From contig NC_092389.1 in the NCBI RefSeq assembly GCF_030028105.1, positions 13,937,180-14,001,179 of the forward strand: 64,000 bases of DNA, read 5' to 3'. The DNA comes from Mobula birostris (lineage: Eukaryota). The notes under the pieces were generated by a model. That model had not been told where the DNA came from. It saw only the letters and a program-made list of their open reading frames with translations, and ran no database searches. Shown piece after piece: positions 296-63,205 of the stretch (position 1 is the stretch's first letter; the number at the start of each line of letters is the position of its first letter). Position numbers and translations under genes: made by a program.

Positions 296-768
296 ACTGA
301 AGGAAGAGTGAGTAAGAGATTTGAAAGTTGGAGGGGGAGGGGGAGATCCAAAATGATGATCCCAGGTACCCTGTCATTTGAAGATTTTTCATGGGGACAA
401 TTTGTTCTAATTTGTTCTGTATTGCATTTCATGAGCAAGTCCAAACAAAACAGTAAATATTATTTTCTCTTTGGACACCTGCAAGGACCCAGGCCAATAT
501 ACAATTAGGGCTGGAGTTCACTGGTCAATTTCAGGTGACATGAGTGCACCTGATATTTACTGATAGGCGTCAATGTGTTCTGTCAGTTGATTCTAGCAAG
601 AAGCTATGAAGCTGTTGATACTGTGCAAGAATTGTATACACTTGGGTATGTTGTATACTATAAAGGAGATAGAATCTATAAATGTGGGAGGTGAATATAT
701 TAGTGGACAATATTTTGTAAATCACAAGCATATCTGGGCATCACTTATTAATAGACGTGTTGTGGCAG

Positions 769-2238
769 GTCAGAATATATGCCAGCAAGAGACTGATTGA
801 CATGTTTGTTCTGGAGATTCTGCTGAAGACTTTGGCAAATAAAGGAAGAGCATTCTCTGAAGAGGTTGAGTTGGACAGGCTGTCAGACAGTAAGTTGTGT
901 TCTTCTTATCATCACACACAGTAGAGCATTTGTGATTACAGCCAGCAATGCATTGACAGTGCAGAATATCGGGTTTTCCTAAGTTTCAACCCACATGGTG
1001 AGTCTGTTATAACATGCTGCCAAAGGTTTTCCAACAAAGGAGGAGGAGGATGCAAGAGTTCATGAAATTCCTTCTTTTCCTCTGGATTTTTGATGTTGCT
1101 GAGGACACTGCAGAATTCCAGGTCCAGCCCTTGTACAATAATGTGTGGAAAGATGGGATGTTATTGAAAGAAATGGAAAATTATCTATTTGTAAGTAACA
1201 TTTGATTTATGACTGTAGTAAAGCAAGAATTGAGAATTTCCTGCGTTACCACTGAAGCAGCTGATCAGGTGGATTATCCAGCAACTTGTATTGAGTGTTT
1301 CATTTGTTTTGTCATAAGCTCTTTGTGTGCTGGTTGATAACTGAGAAGTCACCTCATCCTTTTTTTTTAGGTTCAATGCTTGACATCCTTTTAGGCCAGT
1401 ACCTCAACATAGGCCAATACAGTTGTGCAGCCATTGACAATGTGGCACTGCGGGATTACCATTTGAAGGCTTTTACAGATGTGGTGAGTGTATATTTTCC
1501 ACAACTAGTCCTCAATATATCCTTTTGGGATTTTATACCGTCACCCCTCCTGCAAAGCCATTGCTTATTTAAATACTTCTGTTAGTTCTTTTATAATTGT
1601 CAGGGCAGGGGATTTCAAGAAACAATTTCTGGTTCAAGCATCCCCTATCGGCAACAAGCTGTCTTCAAATACTCCTAGAACAGATACAACCCAAGTTAGG
1701 AGGAACAGAATAAAATTCCTCTGTTCTTTTCTCCATCGGTATGCTTCAACTCCTTTTCCAATACACCGTAAACTACTGATTCTGTCTTGGTTCCTAACAA
1801 TTACACATTGTCATTTTGGGCTGGCTAAGGGACTTTGCTTATGCATACAAATTAATGAATGTTGTGCAGCACCAATAAAGACAAGGAGACAGGAATCACA
1901 TTAGAATCATGTCGTGTTACCTGCTGATAATACATAGTTGTAATGGAGTAGTGAAGCAATTTCAGTTCCTCCCGTCTGACATTTCTCACTCTTTTTACTG
2001 GAAAAGTTCTTAAGAATTCTTGGGGTCTGAGGAGAATGAGGAAGCTATGATGTAGTGGAGCTTGTCACCCTGCAGTGAGGTTGCCAGTCCTTTGAATTAA
2101 TGGGGACTCCTGTCTGTTTGCCTTGAACAGGCACTGGATGTGATTCTGACGGAAATGGGTGAACATATGGATGAGGACATGGCTGATCTTTTCCAGTATG
2201 AAAGACAAATGGAAGAAGCAGACTCTAATGTAGAGTAA
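769..2238 (+). CDS. 3' coding exons of an unidentified multi-exon gene: join(769..889,1371..1483,2131..2238), ...VRIYASKRLIDMFVLEILLKTLANKGRAFSEEVELDRLSDSSMLDILLGQYLNIGQYSCAAIDNVALRDYHLKAFTDVALDVILTEMGEHMDEDMADLFQYERQMEEADSNVE*
   Basis: Three exons with AG/GT sites (ggcag|G, A|gtaagt; ttttag|G, G|gtgagt; gaacag|G). Phases are compatible (0,1,0) and give one open frame ending in TAA at 2236-2238. AATAAA lies at 2506-2511. The product is not recognised and the upstream exons were not identified. Confidence 0.75.
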
Positions 2239-36325: not shown

Positions 36326-38574
36326 TACTCCCCCAAATGTGTGAGTGTGTGCGTGTGTAATGTGTATACGTGTGTGGGGGAGGGTCGTGGGGGTTTGTGT
36401 CTGTCAGTGACTCTGTATCTCTATCTGTACATGGTTCTGTGAGTGTGTGTATGTATGTATTCATATTTGTAAGAGTTTATTTGAACTTGTGTTTCTGTCT
36501 GAGAAGCTTTGACTCTTCTGTGTCTCTTTCCCTGGGCATTTTCTTTGTGAGAGTCACTGTCTGTATCTACATGCCTTGTAAGTGTGTTCCCACTTGTTCC
36601 CTACTCAGAATTTCTTATTTTCAGATTTAATATCACCTGTATATAGTGCTAAAAGAAAGCCAACAAATCAGAATCAGGTTTATTATCACCGGCAGGTGAT
36701 GTGGAATTTGTTAACTCAGTAGCAGCAGTTCAATGCAATACATAATCTAGCAGAGAGAGAGAAAAAAATAAATAAAATAAGAAAAATAATAAATAAATTA
36801 CAGTATATGTATATTGAGTAGATTAAAAATTGTGCAAAAAACAGAGATACTGTATATTTAAGAAAAGTGAGGTAGAGTCCAAGGGTTCAATGTCCATTTA
36901 GGAATCGGATGGCAGAGGGGAAGAAGCTGTTCCTGAATCGCTGAGTGTGTGCCTTCAGGCTTCTGTACCTCCTGCCTGATGGTACCAGTGAGAAAAGGGC
37001 TGTACTGTTTATGTTCTATGATGTAGGGTACATGACTTGCTGAACCAGTGGCTCAGGAAGATGAGCAGACTGGTTAATAAGGGCATTACCTTCAGCAGGC
37101 CACCACATAAGGAGTGCAGCATGATACATGCACAGCAATTGCTACGTACTTCTAGGGCAGCTGATTCCTCGTCTCATGTCATGGAATTTCTTGATTTCAC
37201 CCAAGTAAGTAAAAGGACTTAAGTTTAAATTAAGACAGAGTTACGCAGGTAAACCTCGGTGCTGAAGTAAAACTTAGAATACACAATCCTAAGCAGCTGG
37301 GAACGTGAATTACCACACCAGCAACGATCTGGCAATGAGTGGATGCAAAGCCGGGATATTTATGCTGCAGGTTTAAATGAACATCAGGTGTGCCGCAATC
37401 AAAGGGAATTAGGAGAATATGGGGAATTAACGGTCGGGACCGTGACAATGGTAGAATCATGTTAGGTTATGAGTCATGATCTTTTTTCTTTGGCATTCTC
37501 TCAGGTCAAGGATAAGTTGCTTTCCCTCTAATTCATTGATTTCTGGAGTGTTTAACTAGGTCCTGCAGGCTCTGAGCAGGAGGTGTCTGATGGGCCAGGC
37601 AGGTGGGTGTTACGGAAGGTGATGCCTTCCTTTTGCTTTGCTCTCTGGATTCTACATGCTCAAGTGGCTCAAGGTTCTGAGCACAGTCGCTATTTTGAGT
37701 CGTGATTAGCAGAGATTCCCATGCTGAGGGTGTTACGTTTTTGTCATGGAAACTCTGGGAAAATCCTTGAAACATTTCCTTTGTCTTCTGGTAATGTTTT
37801 ACTATAGCAGAGCTTCTGATTCAAAGGTTGGGACTTCATGGACTAATTGGATCCATAATGAGGAAAACACATTCGCAGTGAATTGCTGATATCTCAATAT
37901 CAGCCTTGGTCTAATGTGTGGAGACTGGCTCTTTTGTAGTTGATATGTAGAGGGTGGTGAATCTGTGGAATTCGTTTCCACAGGTGACTGTGGAGGCCAA
38001 GTCATTGGGTATATTTAAGGCAGAGGTTGATAGGTTCTTGATTAGCCGGGGCACGAAGGCTTACAGGGAGAAGGCAGGAGATGGGGGCTGAGAGGGAAAT
38101 GGGTCAGTCGTGTTGAAATGACAGAGCAGATATGATGGGCCGAATGGCCCAATTCAGCTCCTATATCTTATACATGATTCAGGGTGGGGGTCCAAGATGT
38201 GATACAGAGCCTCATAAGCAGATCATTGGAAAGGATCCCAGCAGTGGCTTTCCTTCTGGCAAGAGCAGGGAGAGACCTCAGTAGATATCACAGTCAGACC
38301 CATCTCCTTTCTTCAAGAAGGTCACAGGAACATCATTTGTAAGATCCTCTAACGTGCTCTTCTCTTCCTGGGTGAGAGTGTTAAGATTACAATGTGACCT
38401 AACCATGTTGTGATACTTCACCAAGTATTTTGTTTTCCTCCAAGGCTTCGTTGTTGTTTATTGGATGGGTGGCAGTCGTGGTGGATCGAGCAGTCCAGAA
38501 CACATATCAGACAGAGAATCCATTGAAGGGGCCTTTGAAGTGCCTTGTACAATAAGCACTGACTGCTTCCCAGT

Positions 38575-39090: not shown

Positions 39091-40196
39091 GGTAAGCAAA
39101 CCTGTATTATTGTCTCTTAGTAAGCTAGTCTCCTTAGGTGTTGGGGTCACAGATGTTTTGACAGCACTGAAGAATCCAAGCCTGTTGCGGTTATTGGTGA
39201 GTTCCTGATCTCCCTGTGCATTTCCACCTACCATATGTTGAACTTCAGCTTTCAGTGCCAAAGAAATTGTTTATCTGCTCCTTTTCTTGACAATGTTTCC
39301 AGTCCAAATACGATTTGCATTTGTGTTTGGTTTAATCCTGAATCCCCTGATAGTTTTGATAAATCAGGACTTAGTGAGTTCAGATGGAGAAGCCAAACAT
39401 TTTTTTTTGTAGGCACTAGTTACAATGGACTTCAAGGCTGACCAAATTCTATGAGCATTCTGCTGTCCCTGCTGGTTTAGACTCAGGTTGTTTGTAAGGT
39501 AAGTAGATTTAGTGTTGTGGGCTTTCACCTCAATTTATGTCATTGTCCCTCAGACATGAAAACTGATGGGCAGAAAGTTCTTTCAGGATACTATACCTTT
39601 AACAAGTCAGTCAGTCAAAAGAAGCTTTCCCTCCAAAATATAATCGATTTGTTTTTGAAAACAAGAGGCTTTGCTATTGAAGAGCAACATCATTTGATCA
39701 GTTGGACTGTGCACAGGAGAGCTTTCAAAATATGGTCAAAATGGGAGTGCTTTGCCCCAATAACATTAACAAGATTCTGTAGATTTTGTGTCATGGGAAG
39801 TATTTGGCCCGTTGAAATTCTGTAACGTATGTGAGTGGGAAGAAGTTTGGTCCATTGGATTCTATAGTGTGTGTAAATGAGTGAAAGTTTTGTCTTTTGG
39901 GATCATGTGTGGATCTGCAATTTATTCCACTAAAGAACATTAGAACAGTTTTAGTTGTTTTCCCTCCAGTGACTTTGTTACTGATGCTTATACCAATCCG
40001 AACCTTAACGGAATTGCTTTGAAAGATCAACAAGTTCTCATTAACAAGGTCAAAAACATCAAAGTGTTAATGAATAACTCTAGTCTGAACCTACAAAGAC
40101 ACCGAATAAAATTTGTTTGGAGTTTTAGAGGTTAAATATGAGTGAAACTCAGATTTTCATTTCCGTTCGGATTGTTCATAGCTTGAAACATCCACC

Positions 40197-43100
40197 ATGA
40201 TAATCAAGTCATCGATTGTGATTTCAATCCTCCTCACACTCTCAGGTTGGTATACTTTATTTTCCTCTGATTATTTGATATGGTACCTGATCTAGGTAGG
40301 CTTTTATTTCAAAGCCATAAGAAACTGGTTCAAAGCTTACCTTTTCACTCTGATCACTGTCTTCATTGCCTTGTCCCTCTTGCTCTTTCCATCTTCCTTT
40401 CCTTATACTCCCATCCCTATCAACCCATCGCATAACCCTCTCCCACTTGCCTACAACACACTCTTAGTATCACTCTGTCTCTGACCCATTCTCAGTGTGT
40501 TATCTCCACTGTGATCCATCACTCTGTTCCCATCTCTGTCTCCAATTGTGAATCATGTGGACCCCATTATGCTGACGAAGGGTCTCGGCCTGAAACGTCG
40601 ACTGCACCTCTTCCTAGAGATGCTGCCAGGCCTGCTGCGTTCACCAGCAACTTTGATGTGTGTTGCTTGACCCCATTATACTGCTGTTATTATCCTCTTC
40701 CCTCAATTTCTTCCCACAATTTCTGCTCTTTAAGTAAATAACGGTGGGTATACAACTAACTGCTATTAAGCAGTCAGCTCTACAGTAGGTGGTCAATATA
40801 ATATTGTGTGCTTAACACTTCCACTGAAGGTGAATCATTTTGTCTTGGAGTCCACAAAAGCTGCCTCTCTCAGTATACCATCAAACAATGTTCCTGTGAC
40901 TGTCCAAATGTCATGATAGAGAATTGTTTGGAACCCTGCAGAGCAAGTCATGATGGTGCCTCACCAGCTGCCTTGTAATGTAGAGGGCCCTGGCTCTATG
41001 AAGTCACCAGGTCACTTCTTGAATGACTAGAACCCACTTCTCAGTGAATTAAACTGCAGACTCATTGAATCTTCCTCATGTGTTCTTTCTCTATTCCTTC
41101 CATTCCCTTCACCCTGAAGGCTCATGGGCTGACGATAGTGATCAGTTTCAAAATGTCTTGAGAGACCGCATCAGCCAATTGGACAACAATGCCGAGAACG
41201 ATGCGAACCAGCTACAGGGCTTGAAAGCTAACCAACGACAGAAGTGAGTACCTGCCGTGAGGGGTGTTATTAGTACAGGCTGGGCTCCTGTGAGGTGATT
41301 CGAAATGACAAAATGTTGCATTTAGTAAGATAATTAAAAAGTTGGCACATTTGCTGATCAGCAGAGAATTGATGAACTGAACCAGTGCCAGGGTTGTTGA
41401 GTGGAAGCTGATGAGCTGCACATGGTAGTCAGACAGAGACTAAACAAAGGGTAATGGATAACACACGCAAAATGCTGGAGGAACTCAACAAGTCAGGCAG
41501 CATCTATGGAAGGGAATAAACAGTCAACATTTTGCACTGAGGCCCTTTAACACAACTGGAAAGGAAGGGGGAAGAAACCAAGATAAGAAAGAGGGGGTAT
41601 GGGAATGAGTACAAGCAGGTGATAGGTGACACCAGGTGATGGAGAAGATAGGTGGATGTGGGTGGAAAGATGAAGTAAGAAGCTTGGAGTGGATGAATGG
41701 AAGAGGTAAATATCTGAAGAAGAAAGAATCAAATCTGAGTGGACAGTGGACCATTGGAAGAAAAGAAAGGAGGAGAAGAACCAGGGGGAGGCAATGGGCA
41801 GGTGAGGAGAAGAGGAGAACTTAAGAGCGTAACCAGATCAGGAAATGGAAGAAGAGAGAAGGATGGTGGGGGAAGAAATTACCAGAAGTTTGAGAAATTG
41901 ATGTTTGTACCATCAGGTTGGGGGCTACCCAGTCAGGTGTTACTCCTCCAACCTGTGTTTGGCCTCATCTTGGTAGTAGAGGGGGCTATGAGTAGACATG
42001 TCAAAATGGGAATTGGAAGTCAAATAGTAATGGGTGTTAGATGAAGACAGTCATATTTGAATCTTATCTGCTGTTCTATACTATCATGAGATCCCCTATC
42101 TGAATACTATAGTTTTCCTATCTTCCCATATCCACTGTTGCCTATTATGTGCAGAAATTTATTTGTCTCCTTCAGAAAATATATTCAGTATTTAATTGCT
42201 ACAGCTGTCTATAGTAGTGAATTCCACAAATTCACTATGTCCTAAGTGAAGAAAATACTCCTCATCTCCATCCTAATACTTTACCTTGTATCCTGAGACT
42301 GATCTCCTGCTCTAGACAACACAGTTAGGATTAAGCAATATCATCACTGCATTTATGAAGGGGTATGATAACCCTCCTGGAGTTTTTGAGGCCTCTACTA
42401 GTGAAGTAGACAAGGGAGAACCAGTGGATATGGTGTGTTTGGATTTTCTTAAAGCCTCTGATAAAGTCCCACGTAAGTGGCTACTGTGCAAAATTAAACC
42501 ACATGGGACTGGGGGGTAATAATCAAGCATGGATTGAAAATGATTTGACGGAAGGTGGGAAACAGAGGTGCCACTACAGGGATCAGTGACTGGGCCTCAA
42601 CTGTATACAGTATGTTCATGATTTGGATGAGGAACTGAATGTAATATTTCTGTCAACAACATGGAACTGAGTGAGATTGTGAGTTATGAGGAGGATGCAA
42701 AGGGGTTTCAAGCCAATTGTAACAAGTGGAATGAGTAAATACACGGTAGATGCAGTGTGAAGAAATTATATTTGTTGCAAAAACCTCAAAGGCAATTTTT
42801 TTATTTAAATAGTGAGAGCTTGGAAGTATTGATGTACAACGGAACCTTGTTCTTCTTGTACACCAGTCATTAGAAACCAACATGCAAGTGCAGCAAGCAG
42901 TTAAGAAGGCGAATGGTATATTGGCCTTCATTACTAAAGTTTTTTGAGTACAGGAACAAGGATATTTTGCTGTAGTTATATGAGGTTTTGGCAAAATGAC
43001 ATTTGGGAGCATTGTGTGCAATTTTAATTTCCTTACCTATGAAAGGGTATACTGCATACTGGAGGGTATAGCTAAGGTTCACTGGATGGGTTCCCAAGAC

Positions 43101-44278
43101 GGCAGGACTATCATCTGAGGAGAAATTTGGTCAATTATCTTTTCTGGAATCTAGAAGAATGAAAAAGGGTTTTGCTGAAACTGACAAAATCCTAACGTGT
43201 CTTAATAGACTGAATGCAAAAAGGATGTTTCCTGGGGCTTGAGGGTCAAATGGAGTAGGGGAGGGAATTGGGAAGGGTTGATGTCTCAGTCATATGCTGA
43301 CATTAAGGACTGAGATGAGGAGAAACTTTTCCCTTAGAGATTGGTGAATTTGTGGAATTCTGCACTCAGAAGGCAGTGGAGACGGAGTCACTGAGTCTAT
43401 ATTATAGAGGTGAATATATTTAAGAGGGAGATACGTTCTAGACATGAAAGGCTTCAAGGGATCCAAGAAAAGAGCAGGAATATTGTATTGAGGTAAGCAA
43501 TCAGCCATGACCAAATTGAATTATGGGCTTGTCTTGAAGAGTCAAGTGACTTATTACAGGTCTTATTTTCTGTTACTTTGTGCCTATTACCAAACATCAA
43601 ACAAAGGCATTAACTATGGAAGGTGTTTGGGTTTCTTTCCTTATCTATTATCTCACTCTCCATTTTGTTTTGAATTTTTTCCAAGCATCCAGTTACCAGG
43701 AAACTTTCATGCAAGCTGTCTTTTTGGATATACACCTTTCGAGTTCATCTCCTTTTCTTGTTGATTCTTCCAGCCCCACAATGGCTAATCCTGGCCTGAC
43801 TCCCATCGCAGACGACTTTGAAACGGAGATGTCTGAGAGGAGAGAGGCCATTCAACAGCAGGTCACAGAGCAGCTGAGCAACATGGGTGAGAAGCTCTCA
43901 GTTGCCATTGATGGCATGCGTCAGAAGATCAGCAAGGATGTTGAAGAAATTACTCAAAGTCTGACACCCAGCGTTGAAAAACTCAACATCAACCGATGGG
44001 GGCAGTTATTTACCCCCTACAACAAGGTTCTTAGGGCCAGACTGGAAAGCATGAAGGACGCGCGGGATGTGCTGAGTCCATCCACTGAGCGAGTACAACT
44101 GAAAACTATTGGAAATGTGAACATCCAGCACATGACTGGCAATGATGAGCAGACGCGCAACATGGTTGACCAAGTCTCGCAAGAGCTGCTCAATAAGATA
44201 ATTCCGCTGATCAAAGATAGCATGAGCAAGGTGAGCCAACTGGCAATTGAAGTAGCCCAGAAGGGTTGTTCAAAATAA
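40197..44278 (+). CDS. Divergent, shortened apolipoprotein A-IV-like protein, 225 aa: join(40197..40245,41120..41243,43774..44278)
   Basis: Kozak ccaccATG; signal exon MIIKSSIVISILLTLS-G (phase 1). Exon 3 SWADDSDQFQNVLRDRISQLDNNAENDANQLQ resembles apoA-IV 'SQLSNNA' (phase 2). The last exon carries 22-aa amphipathic repeats that align with the neighbouring APOA4. AATAAA at 44359 and 44688. Confidence 0.85.
40572..40668 (+). mobile_element. Penelope pLTR fragment with hammerhead core, sense to intron 2 of the apoA-IV-like gene
   Basis: CTGACGAagggtctcggcctGAAAcgtcgactg..., nearly identical to the reverse complement of 197-290. Confidence 0.75.
41455..42040 (-). mobile_element. Penelope-like fragment in intron 3 of the apoA-IV-like gene
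   Basis: pLTR family sequence and a GSPQPDGTNINF-type GIY-YIG tail. Confidence 0.7.
42290..43570 (+). mobile_element. Decayed CR1 RT fragment in intron 3 of the apoA-IV-like gene
   Basis: VDKGEPVDMVCLDFLKASDKVP and KKANGILAFI motifs. Confidence 0.75.
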
Positions 44279-45379
44279 GATAGATTCTTAGCACATAAGG
44301 TGGTTCTGTACATCAGAGAACTAACTGTAGGCCAGCCTCACAAGTGTTGAAAGCACCAAATAAAATCTGGAATCATATACCTTAGCAGCAACGTCAACCA
44401 GTAGATTGAAACAAGTGGTCCCTGTAAAGAAGGCAACAAAAAGTGTGGAGGAAACACGAAACAAAATTGTCACAAAATACAAACGTCAATCAGCAGAATC
44501 TTCAGTGTGTGTCCTCGGCTTTGCCAAACTTCCACCTGCAGCCCTTAAACAGCAAAAGTACTTAAGCTAAATTGTTACCCAGAACTGTGGAATTGCTTTG
44601 GAACACAAAATGCCATGTCTTTGCTTGTAGTCATTTAAAGCCCTTCAAATGCTTTTATTTGTAAAAAACAATGATTTTGAAGCCACTAATAAAAATTTTT
44701 CAAGCCTGATCTGTAGAATGTGGTTTCTTGAACTCACTCCTGTAAATCTCCACCAGCCGAATGACCCTCTGTAACATTTATTCTGCTCCAATTCTGAGGG
44801 TCCTGAATAACCCTGAGTTCAGTTGCCAAGGTCCTAAGTTTCAAGACGTCCTCTTCAAGCCTCTTTGTCTCACTATTTAAGGAGGAAAATAGCAAGGGAA
44901 GTAACATAGTAAAGAGTAAGTAAAAGTTATAAATGTTATTTTCAAGAAATAAGCATCAACACTTCTAAAATTAAGACTCTAAGGCATAAGTGGTTCAAAA
45001 GGAATTTTATCTCAATACATCATTAAAAGCTCAGTTATGCTTCTTTCAAGAGGACAGTAATTGCAACAGATTGTATTGTAAGAATAGTGTATAAATGGTT
45101 AAAGGGTATATTTAGTCAGCAACTCTACTTGGATTGCCATGTTCGTTATGTCACATAGAGGAGCAGAGTGGCATTGATGGCACTTGCAATTTCCATACTT
45201 ACCAGCCCAATGAAGACTTCAGAAGTAGCTCTAAGTTTAGCAGAATATTGACAATGTGATTAAAGTTTTGCCATCACCACAAATTCATTCCATCATGATG
45301 TCATCTTTTCAAGAAAGGCTTGGATTTATGTAGCACTTTACAGTGCTGCAAAATCCCCAAAATAGTTTCCAATTAATTA

Positions 45380-52158: not shown

Positions 52159-54419
52159 TTAGTTCTGCAGATGCTGCCAGAAGTTGCCCCATAAAGTGGT
52201 GAGCTGGGTCTGAAGATCCTGCTGAACATTGCCTCCATTCAGGACAAGTCTCTCCTGCATCTCCTTCACATTCTGACTGATGATTTGTTTCAGCTGCTCA
52301 GTGTAGGGCGCCAGGTTCTGATGGAACTCCTCGATTCCCTGGTTAACATTGGTGTTGAAATTTTCAATGAATGGGCCCAGATTCTGGTCCATGTTCTCGT
52401 TAAGTTTAGCCTTCAGTTCGACGATGTAAGGGTTCAGCCTTTGGTTCAGAACATCCACATGCTCACTGACTTTTGCCTGGAGCTTCTCGGCATATGGTTC
52501 AACTATCTGGGACATTTCTCCAATTTGTTGGTTCATCTTGATCTGGACATCCTTGGCATAGGGGGCCAAGCTATTGCGAAGCTCCTGGACATTCTCATTA
52601 AACCTGGAGCGGAATTCAGCAGCTTTGGCAGCCACATCCTGCCTGAAGGTGTCCATGTTTTCATCAATCTTCATCTGGAGCTCCTCAGCGTAGGGAGTCA
52701 GGGCTTCCCTCAGGTTCTCTGTGCTCACTTCCAATCTGGCCTGTAGCTCTTCAGTAAAGGGAGTCAACTTCTGCCGAAGTTCCTCTGCATTCTTACGCAG
52801 CTGTTGGCCCAGGTCTTCAGCAAAAGGGGTCAACTTCTGATGAAATTCTTCAATGTTCCTGCTGATCTTCCGATGAACTCCATCAGCAAAGGGAGCAAGT
52901 TTCTCCCTCAGGTCTTCCAGCTGTTCTCTTATCTGCTGGCGAAGGCTCTCAATGTCGACTGTCATCTTCTCATGAAGACCATCGGTGTAAGGAGCCAACT
53001 TCTGTCGGAGATCCTCAGCATAGTCATTGACAGTCTGCAGATTATCCTGAATAAGGCGACTGGAAAAGAAGAGACAGTTGTTTCTTATTCTCGTTACAGG
53101 AAAGAGATACATTTAGACAGAGCTACGTACAAGGCTGGTTCTGAAACAAATGTACACTGGAAAGGAGAGCTTCTAAAGGACATTTTGGATCACAAAATCT
53201 TCTAAGGATAACTGTAGATGTTCATTGCAGAGGGAGGATGTGAGTCACACAATAGTTTTCATTCAATCTATTATTACCTATCTGTTAAGTTTTGCTGGGT
53301 ATCTGTTCCACAAGCCCTGATGAGTTTACCCCTTTTATCATTTATTCTCATTCTTGTTTGTTTTTAAACTTGCTGAGGAACCTTCACTTTAATATTACAG
53401 CACAGTGGTTATGTTCCTGGTAAAACCAATCTACAAAACCATGACGATTAATCTGAAATAATGAATTCAGCTCCTCGTGAAAGACACTTACATTAGAGTA
53501 GATAAATAATACATCTGGAATTCAAGATATCACTCTTGTTATAGCAGATTGACTGTGTTATTATAGAAGTCCATAATGTCCTTAAGGGAAGGAAATCTGT
53601 GTCCATAGTTGAGACTTCACTGGCATCTTAAACTGGTCAATTAACAAATAGAGCTGGACAATAATGTTGGTGGGGATCAGATTCTATAAAATAATTGTAA
53701 AGAACCTCTCGGACTGTTGCAGTGCTCCAGTCCTAAGGCATGTCTGGCCAGCTCCTTGCTCAATAGACGTTGCTGATCTATTCTTAGTACCCATTAAAAC
53801 CCCAAATGCTCACTTGAGTTGCTGTCCGATTTCTGTGCTCTGGATCAGCTCGACACTATCCTGGGCTTCCTCAGTCATTTGGCTGATGTAATTCCAGAAG
53901 GCATCTCGAACCTGATCTCCATTGCTCTCAGCCCGACAGCCTATGGGAAGGAAAATTTGAGGTGATCAGGGTAGGAACACAGCAGGAACATTCCACAACA
54001 TCTACTGTTCATTCAACCAAATGATGCGTAACAAGACTTCACTCTGTATCTTGCTGATCACTCCTCTTTGGGGGTATACTGTAGCTGAATGAGTCATTGA
54101 GTAAAATCCCAGGTCTTTGATTATTTGTAACGGGGACTTACAACAAACCCAGTAAGGGGAGGAACAAGTTGCACCCAGGAGCCGATGTGTGGAGGAATGG
54201 ACAATGCAAGGGGCTCCAGAATTCAGATCAGAGCTAAAATCAGGTGCACATCAGTGAAGTGAAGCTAGTGCGTCCAAGGTCAATCAAGAACCAGCTTTGA
54301 AGACTGGAAATGGCAATAAAACCCAGTCATCGTCTCAGAATAAGAGAACAGGAATATTTGAATCTCATACCTGTGAGAAAGGCAGCAGCCAGAAGCAGGA
54401 GGATTGCTTTGGGAAACAT
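52159..54419 (-). CDS. APOA4: Apolipoprotein A-IV copy A, 358 aa: complement(join(52159..53059,53814..53940,54371..54419))
   Basis: MFPKAILLLLAAAFLTGCRA|ESNGDQVRDAFWNYISQMTEEAQDSVELIQSTEIGQQLNRLIQDNLQTVNDYAEDLRQKLAPY closely parallels human apoA-IV. It has Pro-punctuated 22-aa repeats, canonical splice sites and phases, and AATAAA at 52003-52008. Confidence 0.92.
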
Positions 54420-54772
54420 GGTGGTGTTCTCAAATGATATTGAGTATGACAGATTATTTCTATGTCCCTTTGCAGTCAATCTATGGAAAAAAAAATAACG
54501 ATCAAAGTTATTCCAGAGTTTAAACCCAGATGGAAAATCTACCCGAGTATTATTGCCCCCTTCTGAACTCTATTTGTTATACATGAAGTCAGCATCCAGC
54601 CCTTTGAACCTGTTCAGTTATTGAGATCAAAGCTGATCATTGAGCTCACCACCATTTTCTGCATTGTCCCAATATACCTAGGTGCCCATGGCAACCAGAA
54701 ATATATCCATTTCTGCTTTGAATGAGCTCAGTGACTGAGCCCTCCAGACTTCCAAAGATCTACTGACCTCTA

Positions 54773-55886
54773 AACATCGAACATAGAACAGTACAGCACA
54801 GTACAGGCCCTTCGGCCCACAATATTGTGCCGACCCTCAAACCCTGCCTCCATATAACCACCCACCTTAAACTCCTCCATATACCTGTCTAGTAGTCTCT
54901 TAAATTTCACTAGTGTATCTGCCTCCGCCACTGACTCAGGCAGTGCATTCCACGCACCAACCACTCTCTGAGTAAAAAACCTTCCTCTAATATCCCCCTT
55001 GAACTTCCCACCCCTTACCTTAAAGCCATGTCCTCTTTTATTGAGCAGTGGTGCCCTGGGGAAGAGGCGCTGGCTATCCACTCTATCTATTCCTCTTATT
55101 ATCTTGTACACCTCTATCATGTCTCCTCTCATCCTCCTTCTCTCCAAAGAGTAAAGCCCTAGCTCCCTTAATCTCTGATCATAATGCAGACTCTCTAAAC
55201 CAGGCAGCATCCTGGTAAATCTCCTCTGTACCCTTTCCAATGCTTCCATATCCTTCCTATAGTGAGGCAACCAGAACTGGACACAGTACTCCAAGTGTGG
55301 CCTAACCAGAGTTTTATAGAGCTGCATCATTACCCCGCGACTCTTAAACTCTATCCCTCGATTTATGAAAGCTAACACCCCATAAGCTTTCGTAAATACC
55401 CCATCTACCTGTGAGGCAACTTTAAGGGATCTATGGACGTGTACCCCAGATCCCTCTGCTCCTCCACACTACCAACTATCCTGCCATTTACTTTGTACTC
55501 TGCCTTGGAGTTTGTCCTTCCAAAGAGTACAACCTCACACTTCTCCGGGTTGAACTCCATCTGCCACTTCTCAGCCCACTTCTGCATCCTATCAATGTCT
55601 CTCTGCAACCTTCAACAATCCTCTACACTATCTACAACACCACCAACCTTTGTGTCGTCTGCAAACTTGCAAACCCACCCTTCCACCCCCACATCCAGGT
55701 CATTAATAAAAATCACGAAAAGTAGAGGTCTCAGAACCCTACAATCCGAATGTACTCTCTCCACCACGACCCTCTGCTTTCTGCAGGCAAGCCAATTCTG
55801 AATCCACCTGGCCAAACTTCCCACCACAGATGTAAGGCTCACTGGTCTATAATTACCCGGACTATTCCTACTACCTTTTTTGAACC
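54773..55886 (-). mobile_element. 5'-truncated, internally deleted CR1 inserted in intron 1 of APOA4 copy A only
   Basis: CR1 ORF2 C-terminus (KFADDTK, LEYCVQFW, FFTQRVV). Copy B has the empty site gacctcta|atttacaa at about 63550-63565. Confidence 0.9.
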
Positions 55887-56334
55887 ATTTACAACATTCT
55901 TTCTTTTTGAAGTCCTTAATGGCACACCCCTTACTCTGAAACTCTGACCCCACCCTGGGATCCTAAACTCTTCAGCCAGAGAAAGTATCCTCCACACATC
56001 TAGTCTGTGACGAATCAGTTATAAAACCATAAATCACAGGAGCAGAATTGAGCCTTTTGGCCCAGCGAATCTGCTCGTCCATTCAATCAAAACTGATTTA
56101 TTTTCTCTCTCAGCCCCATTCTCCCCATAATCTTTGATCCGATACTAATGAAGAACCTATCAAACTCCCAGTTAATTATACCCTGTAACATTACAGAAAC
56201 ATAGAAAGCTGTTCTTTAGTTTCTATGCATTGACCAATTGCCTGATCAGTGAAGCTGTCCATAGACAGTAGTTAAAAGGATAAGCAGGCAAGCTCGCTGC
56301 GGTGGAGGAAAGTGAGCATCAGGGCTCCTCTCAC

Positions 56335-56700
56335 CTGTTTCTGCTGTGTTCTTCCAGGAGATCTGTGTGGCAGCCCACAGACGCTCACTCTATATAAGGG
56401 CACCTTATCAGCAGCTGATAACAAAGTTGATACATTTGTGTTCTCGTGGACTTTCCCTGAAAACCAGGAGAATGTGGAGCTTCCAACAAGAATGTTACTC
56501 TGAACTGCTGCCTTCACCATGACTCCAACTCAACCTGAGAGGGCAAATTCCATTCAAGATTAATTTTTCATTCCAAAGGCCATGGTTTACTACCTCTGTA
56601 ACATTAGATCACTCTATGGACTTGGGGTGAGGTATTTTTAATGACAGGGAGAGTCTGTCATCATTGGCAGCTGATTAGGTAACCTGAGGACTTTGATTCG
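56335..56700 (-). promoter_or_regulatory. APOA4 copy A promoter: non-coding exon 1 (about 56335-56365), TATA (56391-56397), paired GATA motifs (56403-56420), HNF4-like site (56687-56695)
   Basis: The minus strand reads ccttatatagag...aaacag|gtgaga. The + strand shows ttatcagcagctgataa and AGGACTTTG. Confidence 0.65.
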
Positions 56701-57499
56701 AGATCATCAGCAAAGGAAGCAGATGGGAGATGTAGGAATAATGAGTTGCTGGCGTCTGGAATGAATATTTGTGGAGTGGATGGAAAGAGTCTCCCCTTGC
56801 CTCCGCAGATAGATCGACAGGAAGCAAATTGTATGGCCGCTGGGAAAGTGTGATGATTGAAATTAATTCCTTAGACAGAAATGCTGGGCCTAACAAGGTC
56901 CTGTCTGAGATAAAGGAATCTATGATTTTGTATCGTTTTACCTGCTAAGGCCTTAAAAGTTCTCCATGTGAACATATTCACACAAGACAATCACTGTTGC
57001 TTAAGCCTGCGACCTCATGGTCACAGAGTCACACAGCACAGAAACAGGCCTTTGGCCAATGGAGTCCTTGACAAACAACAGTCTACATTAACACTATATT
57101 AACTGCATTTTTAAATTCTTCCCACGTTCCATTCAAATCTCCCCATATTCTAACCATCTATCGGCAATTTACAATGTCCAATAACCTACCAACCTGTCTG
57201 ACTTTGAGGTGTGTGAGGAAAAGGAGCATTTGAAGAAAACCCACTTTGCTTCATGTACAACGTGCAAACTGCACACAGAGCCCTGAGTCCACTGCGAATC
57301 CAATGGGGAAAACAAAGCCCAGTGTCTGTGAATCTACAAGTTCACTGGACGCTGGAGGCCCAGAGGCCTGTCCTGGGGTTGGGCAACGGTTTGTTTGTGT
57401 GTGTGGGAGGGAGGAACAGGGATTGTTTTGCTGTAGTTGTTTAGTTGCTTGTGTGTTTTGTCTTGCTCTGCCGAGCGTTGTGGGCATGTTAGGTTGGTG

Positions 57500-58556
57500 A
57501 CTGCAGTCTGTGCGGATTGGTAAAAACATATCCTCCTCGCTGACGATCAACACTGGCGCACCTCGGGTGTGTGCTTAGCCCACTGCTCTATCTTTGTATA
57601 CACATGACTGTGTGGCTAGGTATTAGCTCAAATACCATCTATAAATTTGCTGACGGTACAACCATTGTTGGTGGAATCTCAGGTGGCGACGAGAAGGCGT
57701 ACAGGAGTGAGATATGCCAACCAGTGGAGTGGTGTCACAGCAACAGCCTGGCACTCAACGTCAGTAAGACGAAAGAGCTGATTGTGGACTTCAGGAAGGG
57801 TAAGACGAAGGGACACATACCAATCCTCATTGAGGGATCAGAAGTGGAGAGAGTGAGCAGCTTCAAGTTCCTGGGTGTCATGATCTCTGAGAATCTAGCC
57901 TGATCCTTACATATTGATGTCATCATAAAGAAGGCAAGACAGTGGCTATACTTCATTAGGAGTTTGAAGAGATTTGGCATGTCAACAAATGCACTCAAAA
58001 ACTTCTATCGTTGTACCATGGACACCATTCTGACAGGCTGCATCACTGTCTGGTATGGAGGGGCTACCGCACAGGACCGATAGAAGCTGCAGAGGGTTGT
58101 AGATCTAGTCAGCTCCATCATTGGTACTAGCCTACAAAGTACCCAGGACATCTTCAGGGAGCGGTGTCTCAGAAAGGCAGCGTCCATTATTAAAGACCTC
58201 CTGCACCCAGGGCATGCCCTTTTCTGACCGATACCATCAGGTAGGAGGTACAGAAGCCTGAAGGCACACACTCAGGATTCAGGAACAGCTTCTTCCCCTC
58301 TGCCATCCTATTCTCAACTGAACTTTGAAGCTTTGGACACTACCTCACTTTTTTAATATACAGTATTTCTCTTTTTGCACATTTTTTAATAATCTATTCA
58401 ATATACATAATTGTTTTACTTGTTTATTTATTATCATGTTTTTATTTAATTTATTTTTTCCTCTCTCCCTGTGGATTATGCATTGCATTGAACTGCTGCT
58501 GCTAAGTTAACAAATTTCATGTCACATGCCAGTGATAATAAACCTGATTCTGATTC
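57500..58556 (+). mobile_element. Rex1/Babar-like LINE RT 3' portion
   Basis: GCVLSPLLY, YKFADGTTIVG, KTKELIVDFR, FKFLGV; aataaacctgattctgattc tail. Confidence 0.85.
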
Positions 58557-59039
58557 CGGTGTTGGAATGCATGGCACCATTTGCGGGCTGCTGTAGATTG
58601 TGTTGGCTGTTAATGCAAACATTTGTTTTGAAGTACAAGTGATACATAGATGGATCTGAATCTCACGGTGTCTAAGTTCAGGGTTGAACCCAGTTGGTGA
58701 CACTGAGATGGATAGAAAAGGGGTTTGTTTTGTTGCTATTGTCTCTTCTAATTTGCTGTCGTTGCTCCTTGTGTTATTTATTGGAACATATTGGGCCAGT
58801 GATGTTGGTGATGGAATGCGTGGAAACAATTGCAGGCTGCCTCAGCACACCCTTGGGTTGTGTTGGGTGTTAACGCAAATAATGGAGGATGACCATGTGA
58901 TAAATAAATCTGCATCTGTCTCTCTCGAAATGCCTTCTTTTCTGCTACACTGGATTATATGCATCCAGAAACTCTGTTTGCACTTGCTCCAATTCCATTC
59001 ACTCTCACTCTCTGACCTTTTAATTGCACCTAGAGACTT

Positions 59040-59180
59040 GATTGTTTTGTATTTAATATTTCAATTATACTTGAGTAATCTTGTGTGTGTGTGTATATAT
59101 ACATACAAAAATATATATATAGTTTGATTTAAGTATTTTGTTCGTTTAAATAATTGTGTTGTTATATATGTGTGTATGTA

Positions 59181-59226
<46 letters not shown>

Positions 59227-60250
59227 TATAAAATGATATATACAGTTTGATGAAGTAATCCTGTTCGTTTAAATAATTAATTACGGTTTCATGTAAAAAT
59301 GCATTAATTGTAACTGTCATCACGCTATCACGTGATACAAGAGCGCCTCGCTTAAAGGCAAAGCGAGACCTATATTTCGGACTCTGTATCTTCCTTTGAA
59401 TTACTTCAAGTTTTGAAGTTAGAAAACATAACGGTGCTGATTAGGTATTTTAAAACGAACCCGAGACCTCTACCAACCTGTTAAGCGTAGCGGGCCGTTC
59501 AAAATAAAGTAAACACAGCAGGTGCACCGTCGAGTGAAAACCCACCCCAACGTGAGGAGAGACGGCCGAATTTAAAGCGAATGCAGCCAGCACGTGCTTT
59601 TCGGAAGGGAACACACGATCGAGGTTTTTTTAAAATGGAGTAAACGGAAGAACTTGGGGATCATAAACTGTGAGTAGCGAGTGATACTACGCATTAAAAA
59701 ATCAGAAATGGCTGGTTGCTTCGGAAAGATTGACGAGTTTGATTGCTCAAATGGCTCATGTACTGAACTATTGGGACAGTATTTTGATGCAAATGAAATA
59801 GCCAATGAGAAGCGAGTGCCAGTTTTGCTAAATGTATTGAGTTTAAAGGCATACAGTTTTCTTCGACGTTTGACTGCTCCGACCAAACTATCAAGTCTGA
59901 GTTTTGCCGCTATTGTAAAAGTGATGCAGGAACACTGAGAACCCAGGCCATTGTTTATTGCAGAACACTTTAGGTTTCATAAGCAGAATCAAAAAGAAGG
60001 GGAGCCCATTTTGGCATGGGTGGCTGAATTGAAGAGACTGCCTTCCATAATGGGCTTAATGATGCACTGAGAGATTGCTTAGTTTGTGAAATCTAAAAGA
60101 AAGTATTCATCAGCAGCTCCTAACTGAGGCGCAGCTTACGTTCCAATGAGCAGTGGAAATCACTGTTTCATTGGAAACCGCAGAAAAACAATTGAGTTGC
60201 AATCAGGAATGAAAGTGAGCATGAAGAATACTGAGATGCTGCAGTTGAAA
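59040..60250 (+). mobile_element. Gypsy LTR retrotransposon remnant: 5' LTR with (TG)n/(TA)n microsatellite and gag fragment (59708 onward)
   Basis: MAG.FGKIDEFD...QYFDANEI...LL..L..KAY..LR.L.AP.K...EH.EPRPLFIAE.FRFHK.NQ.EGE.I..WVAELKRL is a typical Gypsy gag. Confidence 0.8.
59165..59230. repeat. (TG)n/(TA)n microsatellite
   Basis: Directly visible dinucleotide runs. Confidence 0.9.
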
Positions 60251-60944
60251 ACAGCCTGGCTGACCAAATTATGTTATTGTGGCAGTGGAATAGTTGAGAA
60301 GGAAAATAAATCAGCCATGATTGAATGCTGAAGCAGATTTGATGTGTCAAATGGCCTAATTCTGTTCCTATGTCTTACGGATCTTGCACTCCAGACATTG
60401 AAGTTAGCAGGTTCAGTGGCCTGCTGAAATGACCTGTTCAATAATACATACAGGATTGAAGTTATGTTAGAATCTTTGAAACACTGATTGAATTACTGAT
60501 GTTAAGTATGGTCGAAAGACTTTATGAAGGCTGTCCAAGCTGCAGAAGGAGCAGATTTCCATCAAAGATATGGCAGAATAGGGCAGGTGTGATTTCAATA
60601 AGTATCTCCAAAAATTGCGTTGCACCAATGCTTGTCAGAGATATTTGGAGTAATTGGGGAAACGTGTGGGAAAATGGGATGTAGTGGGTTGGATGAATTG
60701 CTTTGTTTTGTGCAGTATGATTTACATAGTTCTAGTGATAACTATTTTTGACCATGTAAAACTTCTCAGATATTAAAGTTTTATTGCAGGTATTTTATAG
60801 TTCACACTCCAAAATTTCAGTATTTGATTTTAATACTTTTCAGTCGAAAAACAATAAATAATTTTGACATATTACCATTTGAGACAGCAAGAGGACCCCT
60901 GAGTCTTGACACACAGTTTGATAGAGCCACATTCTACATCTCAA

Positions 60945-63205
60945 TTAGTTCTGCAGATGCTGCCAGAAGTTGCCCCATAAAGTGGTGAGCTGGGTCTGAA
61001 GATCCTGCTGAACATTGCCTCCATTCAGGACAAGTCTCTCCTGCATCTCCTTCACATTCTGACTGATGATTTGTTTCAGCTGCTCAGTGTAGGGAGCCAG
61101 GTTCTGATGGAACTCCTCGATTCCCTGGTTAACGTTGGTGTTGAAATTTTCAATGAATGGGCCCAGGTTCTGGTCCATGTTCTCGTTAAGTTTAGCCTTC
61201 AGTTCGACGATGTAAGGGTTCAGCCTTTGGTTCAGAACATCCACATGCTCATTGACTTTTGCCTGGAGCTTCTCGGCATATGGTTCAACTATCTGGGACA
61301 TTTCTCCAATTTGTTGGTTCATCTTGATCTGGAGATCCTTGGCATAGGGGGCCAAGCTATTGCGAAGCTCCTGGACATTCTCATTAAACCTGGAGCGGAA
61401 TTCAGCAGCTTTGGCAGCCACATCCTGCCTGAGGGTGTCCATGTTTTCATCAATCTTCATCTGGAGCTCCTCAGCATAGGGAGTCAGGACTTCCCTCAGG
61501 TTCTCTGTGCTCACTTCCAATCTGGCCTGTAGCTCTTCAGTAAAGGGAGTCAACTTCTGCCGAAGTTCCTCTGCATTCTTATGCAGCTGTTGGCCCAGGT
61601 CTTCAGCAAAAGGGGTCAACTTCTGATGAAATTCTTCAATATTCCTGCTGATCTTCCGATGAACTCCATCAGCAAAGGGAGCAAGTTTCTCCCTCAGGTC
61701 TTCCAGCTGTTCTCTTATCTGCTGGCGAAGGCTCTCAATGTCGACTGTCATCTTCTCATGAAGACCATCGGTGTAAGGAGCCAACTTCTGTCGGAGATCC
61801 TCAGCATAGTCATTGACAGTCTGCAGATTATCCTGAATAAGGCGACTGGAAAAGAAGAGACAGTTGTTTCTTATTCTCGTTACAGGAAAGAGATACATTT
61901 AGACAGAGCTACGTACAAGGCTGGCTCTGAAACAAATGTACACTGGAAAGGAGAGCTTCTAAAGGACATTTTGGATCACAAAATCTTCTAAGGATAACTG
62001 TAGATGTTCATTGCAGAGGGAGGATGTGAGTCACACAATAGTTTTCATTCAATCTATTATTACCTATCTGTTAAGTTTTGCTGGGTATCTGTTCCACAAG
62101 CCCTGATGAGTTTACCCCTTTTATCATTTATTCTCATTCTTGTTTGTTTTTAAACTTGCTGAGGAACCTTCACTTTAATATTACAGCACAGTGGTTATGT
62201 TCCTGGTAAAACCAATCTACAAAACCATGACGATTATTCTGAAATAATGAATTCAGCTCCTCGTGAAAAACACTTACATTAGAGTAGATAAATAATACAT
62301 CTGGAATTCAAGATATCACTCTTGTTATAGCAAATTGACTGTGTTATTATAGAAGTCCATAATGTCCTTAAGGGAAGGAAATCTGTGTCCATAGTTGAGA
62401 CTTCACTGGCATCTTAAACTGGTCAATTAACAAATAGAGCTGGACAATAATGTTGGTGGGGATCAGATTCTATAAAATAATTGTAAAGAACCTCTCGGAC
62501 TGTTGCAGTGCTCCAGTCCTAAGGCATGCCTGGCCAGCTCCTTGCTCAATAGACGTTGCTGATCTATTCTTAGTACCCATTAAAACCCCAAATGCTCACT
62601 TGAGTTGCTGTCCGATTTCTGAGCTCTGGATCAGCTCGACACTATCCTGGGCTTCCTCAGTCATTTGGCTGATGTAATTCCAGAAGGCATCTCGAACCTG
62701 ATCTCCATTGCTCTCAGCCCGACAGCCTATGGGAAGGAAAATTTGAGGTGATCAGGGTAGGAACACAGCAGGAACATTCCACAACATCTACTGTTCATTC
62801 AACCAAATGATGCGTAACAAGACTTCACTCTGTATCTTGCTGATCACTCCTCTTTGGGGGTATACTGTAGCTGAATGAGTCATTGAGTAAAATCCCAGGT
62901 CTTTGATTATTTGTAACGGGGACTTACAACAAACCCAGTAAGGGGAGGAACAAGTTGCACCCAGGAGCCGATGTGTGGAGGAATGGACAATGCAAGGGGC
63001 TCCAGAATTCAGATCAGAGCTAAAATCAGGTGCACATCAGTGAAGTGAAGCTAGTGCGTCCAAGGTCAATCAAGAACCAGCTTTGAAGACTGGAAATGGC
63101 AATAAAACCCAGTCATCGTCCCAGAATAAGAGAACAGGAATATTTGAATCTCATACCTGTGAGAAAGGCAGCAGCCAGAAGCAGGAGGATTGCTTTGGGA
63201 AACAT
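60945..63205 (-). CDS. APOA4: Apolipoprotein A-IV copy B, 358 aa: complement(join(60945..61845,62600..62726,63157..63205)); exon 1 lies beyond the window end
   Basis: Same structure as copy A at a constant offset of 8786 nt, with six amino-acid differences. AATAAA at 60780-60785. Confidence 0.92.

What the first reader, a model, noticed from the sequence alone, without database searches (positions are those of the whole stretch)
40182..44693. Inverted, shortened and rapidly diverged apoA-IV paralogue (225 aa)
Seen: an intact frame with the same exon phases as the adjacent APOA4s but on the opposite strand, and 133 aa shorter. It has lost the conserved FWNY/WDY motif (LRDR instead), the start of exon 4 is truncated, several repeat prolines are replaced, and it ends with a free Cys (KGCSK). 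Inference: a lineage-specific, possibly neofunctionalised apolipoprotein that could dimerise by disulfide or be lipidated, rather than a pseudogene.
Basis: partly seen in the sequence, partly recalled or inferred. Interest (0 to 1): 0.7.

Follow-up and report, generated by a model that had tools for sequence, protein, structure and literature searches.

The report
Shortened, cysteine-tailed ray apolipoprotein
This is a real, spliced ray gene for a shortened relative of the blood fat-carrier apoA-IV, kept in skate, sawfish, stingray and manta with an unchanged tail cysteine; it likely coats small fat particles and is likely disulfide-linked, making it an undescribed branch of a well-known family rather than a new kind of gene.

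Summary
Confirmed: three coding exons (49/124/505 nt) give a 225-aa secreted protein, identical to an 'uncharacterized' RefSeq model of Mobula birostris. Spliced contigs occur in three organisms, and dN/dS is about 0.3-0.6, so it is not a pseudogene. It is not narrowly lineage-specific: orthologues exist in stingray, sawfish and skate, and longer ones in sharks. The clade is sister to the neighbouring apoA-IV-like array. ApoE and apoA-I lie at separate loci; apoA-V could not be tested directly.

The tail Cys is kept in 6 of 6 ray sequences. Sawfish and skate carry a second Cys where the WxY motif was; stingray and manta lost it. Best reading: an exchangeable apolipoprotein whose Cys is disulfide-bonded (untested). 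Tissue is unknown. Two earlier scan notes describe what is probably a different short shark subfamily. Side finding: APOA1 looks decayed in this assembly.

The parts
37061..37204 (+). Optional upstream exon used by the RefSeq isoform X1 model (P0002, 53-aa N-terminal extension)
   Evidence: tblastn of P0002 residues 1-53; donor GT at 37205 read from the sequence; not checked by reads
40182..40245 (+). Signal-peptide exon: acceptor at 40182, ATG at 40197, 49 coding nt, phase-1 donor
   Evidence: joint 40245>41120 in runs X3 and X4
40246..41119 (+). Intron, GT..AG, 874 nt, holds a SINE-type repeat
   Evidence: tables 2 and 5
41120..41243 (+). N-terminal mature exon (124 nt, phase-2 donor)
41158..41169 (+). 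Codons 30-33, LRDR, in place of FWNY; residue 33 is Cys in sawfish and skate, Ser in stingray
41244..43773 (+). Intron, GT..AG, 2530 nt
   Evidence: joint in X1, X2, X3; exon-3-like letters joined at 43774 in X7 and X8
43774..44278 (+). Last coding exon: Pro-punctuated amphipathic repeats (P68, 123, 139, 160, 202), ending at a 22-mer boundary
44267..44269 (+). Cys223, the only Cys of the mature chain, conserved in rays
44279..44693 (+). 3' UTR; contigs end at 44686, AATAAA at 44688-44693 (an earlier AATAAA at 44359 is read through)
52159..54419 (-). Neighbouring apoA-IV-like copy 1 (358 aa), sister paralogue
60945..63205 (-). Neighbouring apoA-IV-like copy 2 (358 aa); three more copies follow beyond the window, then ZPR1 and BUD13

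Best explanation
The gene is a spliced, conserved elasmobranch paralogue of the apoA-IV-like array next to ZPR1, and its product is likely a secreted exchangeable apolipoprotein that coats small lipoprotein particles and is likely disulfide-linked through its tail cysteine. Shown: gene model, splicing, purifying selection, orthologues, retained amphipathic periodicity, Cys pattern. Inferred steps: (1) a 20-aa signal peptide is removed, leaving about 205 aa, 23 kDa, pI about 5; (2) Pro-punctuated amphipathic helices bind phospholipid surfaces as in apoA-I/A-IV; (3) on the batoid stem the chain lost, by colinear mapping, the later part of helix C, helix D and the tail, plus the N-terminal W/Y. 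In human apoA-IV these parts build the antiparallel dimer and the N-C contact that tunes lipid binding, so a smaller, less self-inhibited, apoA-I-sized belt protein is expected; (4) sawfish and skate have Cys at both ends (33 and 223), which would allow an N-C disulfide in place of the lost contact; stingray and manta lost Cys33, so Cys223 can only pair with another chain (homodimer or heterodimer, as recalled for human apoA-II) or a small thiol. Step odds: functional secreted family member 0.95; binds lipid 0.8; Cys disulfide-bonded 0.6.
For: Exact GT..AG joints: intron 40246-41119 in 2 of 4 runs, intron 41244-43773 in 3 of 4 runs with the fourth bridging it in one contig; exon 4 joined to exon-3-like sequence in 2 of 4 further runs; one genomic copy of exon 4 plus UTR, so no processed copy explains the joints. 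dN/dS 0.39-0.57 against organism D (24.3-25.3 non-synonymous, 15.7 synonymous in 466 nt; P 0.006-0.06) and 0.31-0.43 against organism B (6 and 5; P 0.06-0.14), hand-classified. Orthologues at 97, 83, 62 and 40% identity. Batoid clade 100/100; with shark proteins 98/96 and 97/94; sister to the array 91/95 and 82/91. Batoid profile scores ApoA-IV 83 bits, ApoA-I at most 37, ApoE at most 17. Helical hydrophobic moment above shuffles in 5 of 5 ray sequences (z 2.7-5.2; mean 0.356 against 0.385 for the array). Tail Cys in 6 of 6 ray sequences that reach the end; Cys33 in 3 of 3 sawfish/skate-type sequences and 0 of 3 stingray/manta ones. Role of the apoA-IV termini and helices C/D: PMC6523623, passages; N-C distance 26 A in the dimer, 127 A with lipid: PMC12017984, passages.
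Against: No biochemical or tissue data. The runs are only guessed to be RNA and contigs cannot rank expression. dN/dS near 0.5 is weak constraint, and neutrality is only marginally rejected at high transition bias. The Pfam score is below the cut-off. The Mobula protein has the lowest moment z of the ray set, a 16-residue proline spacing (6-aa deletion) and a poorly amphipathic stretch at 43-64. The helix mapping onto human apoA-IV assumes colinearity in a repetitive protein. Cys conservation rests on five named species. Support for the array-sister branch is below the starred level.
Confidence: 0.55

Rival explanations
1. It is a redundant, drifting apoA-IV duplicate that does the ordinary job at low level; the truncation and Cys are historical accidents without a special mechanism.
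For: dN/dS about 0.4-0.55; at least 7 intact apoA-IV-like copies exist in the genome; long batoid stem branch fits relaxation as well as adaptation.
Against: Frame, length (225-232 aa) and tail Cys are kept across skate, sawfish and stingrays at only 40-62% identity; Cys is absent from all modelled array copies.
Confidence: 0.22
2. It is the long-diverged orthologue of tetrapod apoA-V (or of apoA-IV proper), acting as a lipase modulator rather than a scaffold.
For: Same strand as ZPR1/BUD13; a sturgeon 'apoA-IV-like' gene that looks apoA-V-like (recalled resemblance, not tested) is fused in one model to BTG and ZP-domain genes whose matches lie 90-114 kb upstream of the window on the same strand.
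Against: AU tests reject grouping with the sturgeon protein (p 0.014 rays alone, 0.040 with sharks) and with alligator/bat apoA-IV (p 0.041); best BLAST match outside the clade is the ray array (77 bits against 44-46). The tests are borderline, uncorrected and named after the first tree, and no tetrapod apoA-V was available.
Confidence: 0.12
3. It has been co-opted for a non-plasma role such as uterine milk, yolk sac or skin mucus lipid carriage.
For: Fast stem evolution and stingray/manta-specific changes (loss of Cys33, 6-aa deletion); histotrophy of stingrays is recalled knowledge.
Against: The short form is also in egg-laying skates (reproductive mode recalled); no tissue labels were available; paper searches gave no such report.
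Confidence: 0.08
4. The C-terminal Cys is lipidated and anchors the protein in membranes or particles.
For: Cys near a basic C-terminus; the sawfish ends in CSKY, with Cys at -4.
Against: Cys is at -3 in 5 of 6 ray sequences, so no CaaX box; a signal peptide sends the chain to the ER lumen, away from cytosolic prenyl- and S-acyltransferases (established knowledge).
Confidence: 0.03

Closest known systems
Apolipoprotein A-IV (human PDB 9hx4, 3s84; the adjacent ray apoA-IV-like array)
   Same: Signal exon and intron phases, colinear N-terminal two thirds, 33+22-residue proline spacing, acidic pI, best profile match.
   Different: 133 aa shorter, ends at a repeat boundary, no WxY motif, no aromatic C-terminal helix, one conserved Cys, about 30% identity to the array, opposite strand to it.
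Apolipoprotein A-I
   Same: Similar size class (mature 205 against 243 aa) and helical repeat design.
   Different: Much weaker match; the apoA-I-like exon of this genome lies 3' of SIK3, 12 Mb away.
Apolipoprotein E (shark 'apoEb-like')
   Same: Same Pfam family and gene plan.
   Different: No LRKYRKRL-type receptor motif; a separate apoE gene is on contig C192; grouping rejected, p-AU 0.016.
Apolipoprotein A-II (disulfide-linked dimer; recalled, not tested)
   Same: Proposed mode: a single Cys near one end joining two short amphipathic chains.
   Different: Different subfamily and size; the Cys here is C-terminal.
Database entries XP_072094406.1, XP_062894348.1 (LOC134340773), XP_032905635.1 (LOC116991269), XP_051896046.1
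   Same: The same gene is already modelled in four ray genomes.
   Different: Named 'uncharacterized' or 'apolipoprotein A-IV-like'; no description of the subfamily turned up in nine paper searches.

Membership tests
Exchangeable apolipoproteins A-I/A-IV/E (PF01442) | Signal-peptide exon, phase-1 and phase-2 introns, large last exon | tested here: met
Exchangeable apolipoproteins A-I/A-IV/E (PF01442) | Pro-punctuated 11/22-mer amphipathic helical repeats | tested here: met
   5 of 7 prolines kept; moment z 2.7-5.2
Exchangeable apolipoproteins A-I/A-IV/E (PF01442) | Homology to the family profile | tested here: met
   E 3.7e-11; 43.5 bits is under the 90-bit curated cut-off, the longer shark orthologue P0018 passes at 122; ten of ten best Atlas hits share the family, scores at most 0.85, a lead only
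Exchangeable apolipoproteins A-I/A-IV/E (PF01442) | Reversible binding to lipoprotein surfaces | not testable with these tools
   needs DMPC clearance or plasma fractionation
ApoA-IV proper | Full repeat set with helices C, D and C-terminal tail | tested here: not met
   about 103-110 C-terminal residues absent; no remnant in the 3' UTR
ApoA-IV proper | Conserved N-terminal WxY motif | tested here: not met
   LRDR/LRDC/LTEC/LRDS in rays
ApoA-IV proper | Three-exon gene without the 5' intron (PMC6523623) | tested here: inconclusive
   acceptor at 40182 used by RefSeq models in manta and sawfish, but contig X4 runs unspliced to 40148
ApoA-IV proper | One-to-one orthology with tetrapod APOA4 | tested here: inconclusive
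   grouping rejected at p-AU 0.041 with only two tetrapod rows
ApoE | Basic receptor-binding motif and place in the apoE cluster | tested here: not met
   motif absent; separate apoE on C192
ApoA-I | Position 3' of SIK3 and best match to ApoA-I | tested here: not met
ApoA-V | Orthology with tetrapod APOA5 | tested here: inconclusive
   no APOA5 sequence was returned by any search; sturgeon proxy rejected at p-AU 0.014-0.040
CaaX-prenylated proteins | Cys at -4 in a cytosolic protein | tested here: not met
   Cys at -3 in 5 of 6; signal peptide present

The most novel reading that the evidence does not exclude
Rays rebuilt apoA-IV's terminal 'latch' in covalent form: the ancestral batoid protein swapped the aromatic N-C contact for a Cys33-Cys223 disulfide, and stingrays and mantas then turned it into a covalent dimer by losing Cys33. 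In a manta genome whose APOA1 is decayed, this short protein and the expanded apoA-IV array have taken over as the HDL scaffold.
Probability: 0.12. Interest if true: 0.7.

Novelty: new variant of a known kind. Interest (0 to 1): 0.37.

Why it matters
[quoted passage not shown] This locus shows an extra, old elasmobranch subfamily with a batoid-specific truncation that removes the parts known to tune dimerisation and lipid binding in human apoA-IV, so it is a natural deletion mutant with a testable one-Cys/two-Cys switch. It also bears on which proteins scaffold HDL in rays, given the apparently decayed APOA1 and the multiplied apoA-IV-like copies. It is not a new kind of system.

Tried and rejected
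AlphaFold2 with 5 and with 22 aligned sequences gave helical but low-confidence models (pLDDT 39 and 43); no fold search was run on them. The two-copy complex job gave no answer (score 0.03, alignment not used); it is no evidence either way. No listed run is on record as RNA. Run X9 had no cover and X6 only one 158-nt contig; neither was used. No remnant of the lost repeats in the 3' UTR (scores 33, 25, 28 against shuffle 95th percentiles 32-33). Word-index protein searches were insensitive (1, 4 and 6 hits) and returned no apoA-I or apoA-V reference. Genome searches with bat apoA-IV and with the C192 gene missed even this gene, so they show no absences. Most PF01442 hits in the genome (C2016, C2273) are a 33-bp satellite (2 loci read). 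The Atlas gave nothing usable for the upstream gene. Earlier-finding look-ups by place and by sequence were blank. Rejected: pseudogene, apoE, apoA-I, batoid-only duplication (p-AU 0.035), CaaX lipidation.

Full report
Observation. Three + strand exons (40197-40245, 41120-41243, 43774-44278; 49/124/505 nt) splice to a 225-aa open frame with a hydrophobic N-terminus and the end KGCSK. The adjacent - strand genes are 358 aa with exons 49/127/901 (5 of 7 copies modelled). The product is identical to P0003, RefSeq XP_072094406.1 of Mobula birostris, 'uncharacterized'. Pfam gives PF01442 at E 3.7e-11, below the curated cut-off. Alignment to the array copy shows about 30% identity, a 13-aa gap at the start of exon 4, a 6-aa gap near residue 128, and loss of about 103-110 C-terminal residues. 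The chain stops at the column of the next repeat proline, 22 residues after P202. Five of seven prolines in the shared span are kept.

Expression and constraint. Contigs from runs X1-X4 (organisms A and B, two studies) show the predicted joints: 40245>41120 in 2 of 4, 41243>43774 in 3 of 4 with the fourth bridging it, and 3' ends at 44686 in 3 of 4. Runs X7 and X8 (organism D) cover exon 4 at about 91% identity without gaps and continue 5' into exon-3-like sequence; X6 and X9 gave little or nothing. The genome has one match to exon 4 plus UTR. From 40 listed differences (one more hidden, counted both ways) dN/dS against D is 0.39-0.57, P 0.006-0.06; against B 0.31-0.43, P 0.06-0.14 (hand-classified). 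Tissues are not given, and depth cannot rank genes.

Relatives. The full-library search gave 9 proteins at E up to 0.001: Hemitrygon (fused model), Pristis, a cluster holding Amblyraja, three shark clusters, sturgeon, alligator and one unrelated hypothetical protein. The short form, 225-232 aa, is in all rays; shark proteins run about 300 aa after the signal region. The tail Cys is in 6 of 6 ray sequences reaching the end. Residue 33, the Tyr of WxY, is Cys in Pristis, Amblyraja and P0016, Arg in both Mobula and Ser in Hemitrygon. The 6-aa deletion is also confined to Mobula and Hemitrygon.

Synteny. Order on C24: BTG-family (+), ZP-domain (+), an uncharacterised gene (+), this gene (+), five apoA-IV-like copies (-), ZPR1 (+), BUD13 (+). 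The Heterodontus and Hemitrygon models fuse the same upstream gene to the apolipoprotein, so place and strand are shared with a shark. In humans only APOC3 is on the opposite strand within the cluster (PMC6523623, passages); that ZPR1 and BUD13 share the APOA5 strand is recalled. The array may therefore be the inverted part. ApoE, with LRKYRKRL, and a second apoA-IV-like gene lie on C192, as for teleost apoA-IV next to apoE (PMC4348566, passages). SIK3 is 12 Mb away and is followed by an exon matching only ApoA-I (3 of 3 PDB hits, best E 0.0011).

Phylogeny. With 25 rows the rays form a clade (100/100), join four shark proteins (98/96) and are sister to the array (91/95). With 14 rows (11 near-duplicate or long rows dropped) the values are 100/100, 97/94 and 82/91. 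Nine of nine alternative groupings were rejected at p-AU 0.010-0.041; these are borderline, uncorrected and named after the first tree. No tetrapod apoA-I or apoA-V was in the set. The reading is a duplication before the shark-ray split, followed by truncation and fast change on the batoid stem.

Mechanism. Amphipathic periodicity is kept, which supports lipid-surface binding. Human apoA-IV uses helices C and D for its antiparallel dimer and an N-C contact to tune lipid binding, and its C-terminal domain inhibits cholesterol efflux (PMC6523623, passages; PMC12017984, passages). The batoid profile aligns over positions 1-224 to residues 1-219 of the human chain, so these C-terminal parts are likely missing, together with the N-terminal aromatics. 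A Cys at each end in sawfish and skate suggests a covalent replacement; one Cys in stingray and manta suggests interchain pairing. All of this step is inference. Lipidation is unlikely for the reasons given under rivals.

Literature and earlier notes. Nine searches showed no description of this subfamily; the library lacks most subscription journals and no supplements were read. [quoted passage not shown] PMC8923501 (passages) reports apoa1 transcripts in catshark. PMC7431520 (passages) has no shark data in the terms searched. Two earlier scan notes describe short, glycosylated shark apolipoproteins, one placing them beside APOA1. They fit the two SIK3-side genes found here (5 and 3 sequons), which barely match this protein (E 0.02-0.04); the Mobula protein has no sequon.

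Verdict. A real, conserved, uncharacterised variant of a known family. Interest 0.37.

Noticed in passing
G000:C24:2103651-2109213 (L186): APOA1 looks decayed in this assembly: the ApoA-I-like exon 3 next to SIK3 carries an in-frame stop, its signal exon gives a second stop or a frame shift, and no last exon was found up to 2.40 Mb. Not checked in reads or other rays.
   Followed up: partly
G000:C24:2185196-2221890 (L194-L198): Two short, very divergent apolipoprotein genes with several N-glycosylation sequons follow the APOA1 remnant.
   Followed up: partly
G000:C192:40144-40944 (-): A clear apoE gene with LRKYRKRL, grouping 100/100 with shark apoEb-like proteins, against the statement in PMC6854765 that cartilaginous fish lack apoE.
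   Followed up: partly
window 52159-63205, G000:C24 to 14026000, and G000:C28:27863000-27879100: At least seven apoA-IV-like copies, five in tandem and two on another contig; the five modelled differ by 1-23 of 1077 nt, so they are recent or homogenised.
   Followed up: partly
window 56330-56400 (-): TATA box and short non-coding first-exon candidate upstream of array copy 1, suggesting a four-exon gene unlike human APOA4 (read by eye).
   Followed up: no
window 760-1483 and up to 29.6 kb upstream of the window: Uncharacterised multi-exon gene shared with sharks, no Pfam or Atlas hit; database models in Hemitrygon and Heterodontus read through from it into this gene, skipping the signal exon.
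   Followed up: partly
G000:C24:1.4-2.2 Mb versus 13.98-14.08 Mb: The SIK3 and ZPR1/BUD13 halves of the human APOA1-APOA5 cluster are 12 Mb apart on one contig.
   Followed up: no
G000:C2016 and C2273 (L017, L019): A 33-bp tandem repeat translates into apolipoprotein-like 11-mers and passes the Pfam cut-off falsely.
   Followed up: partly
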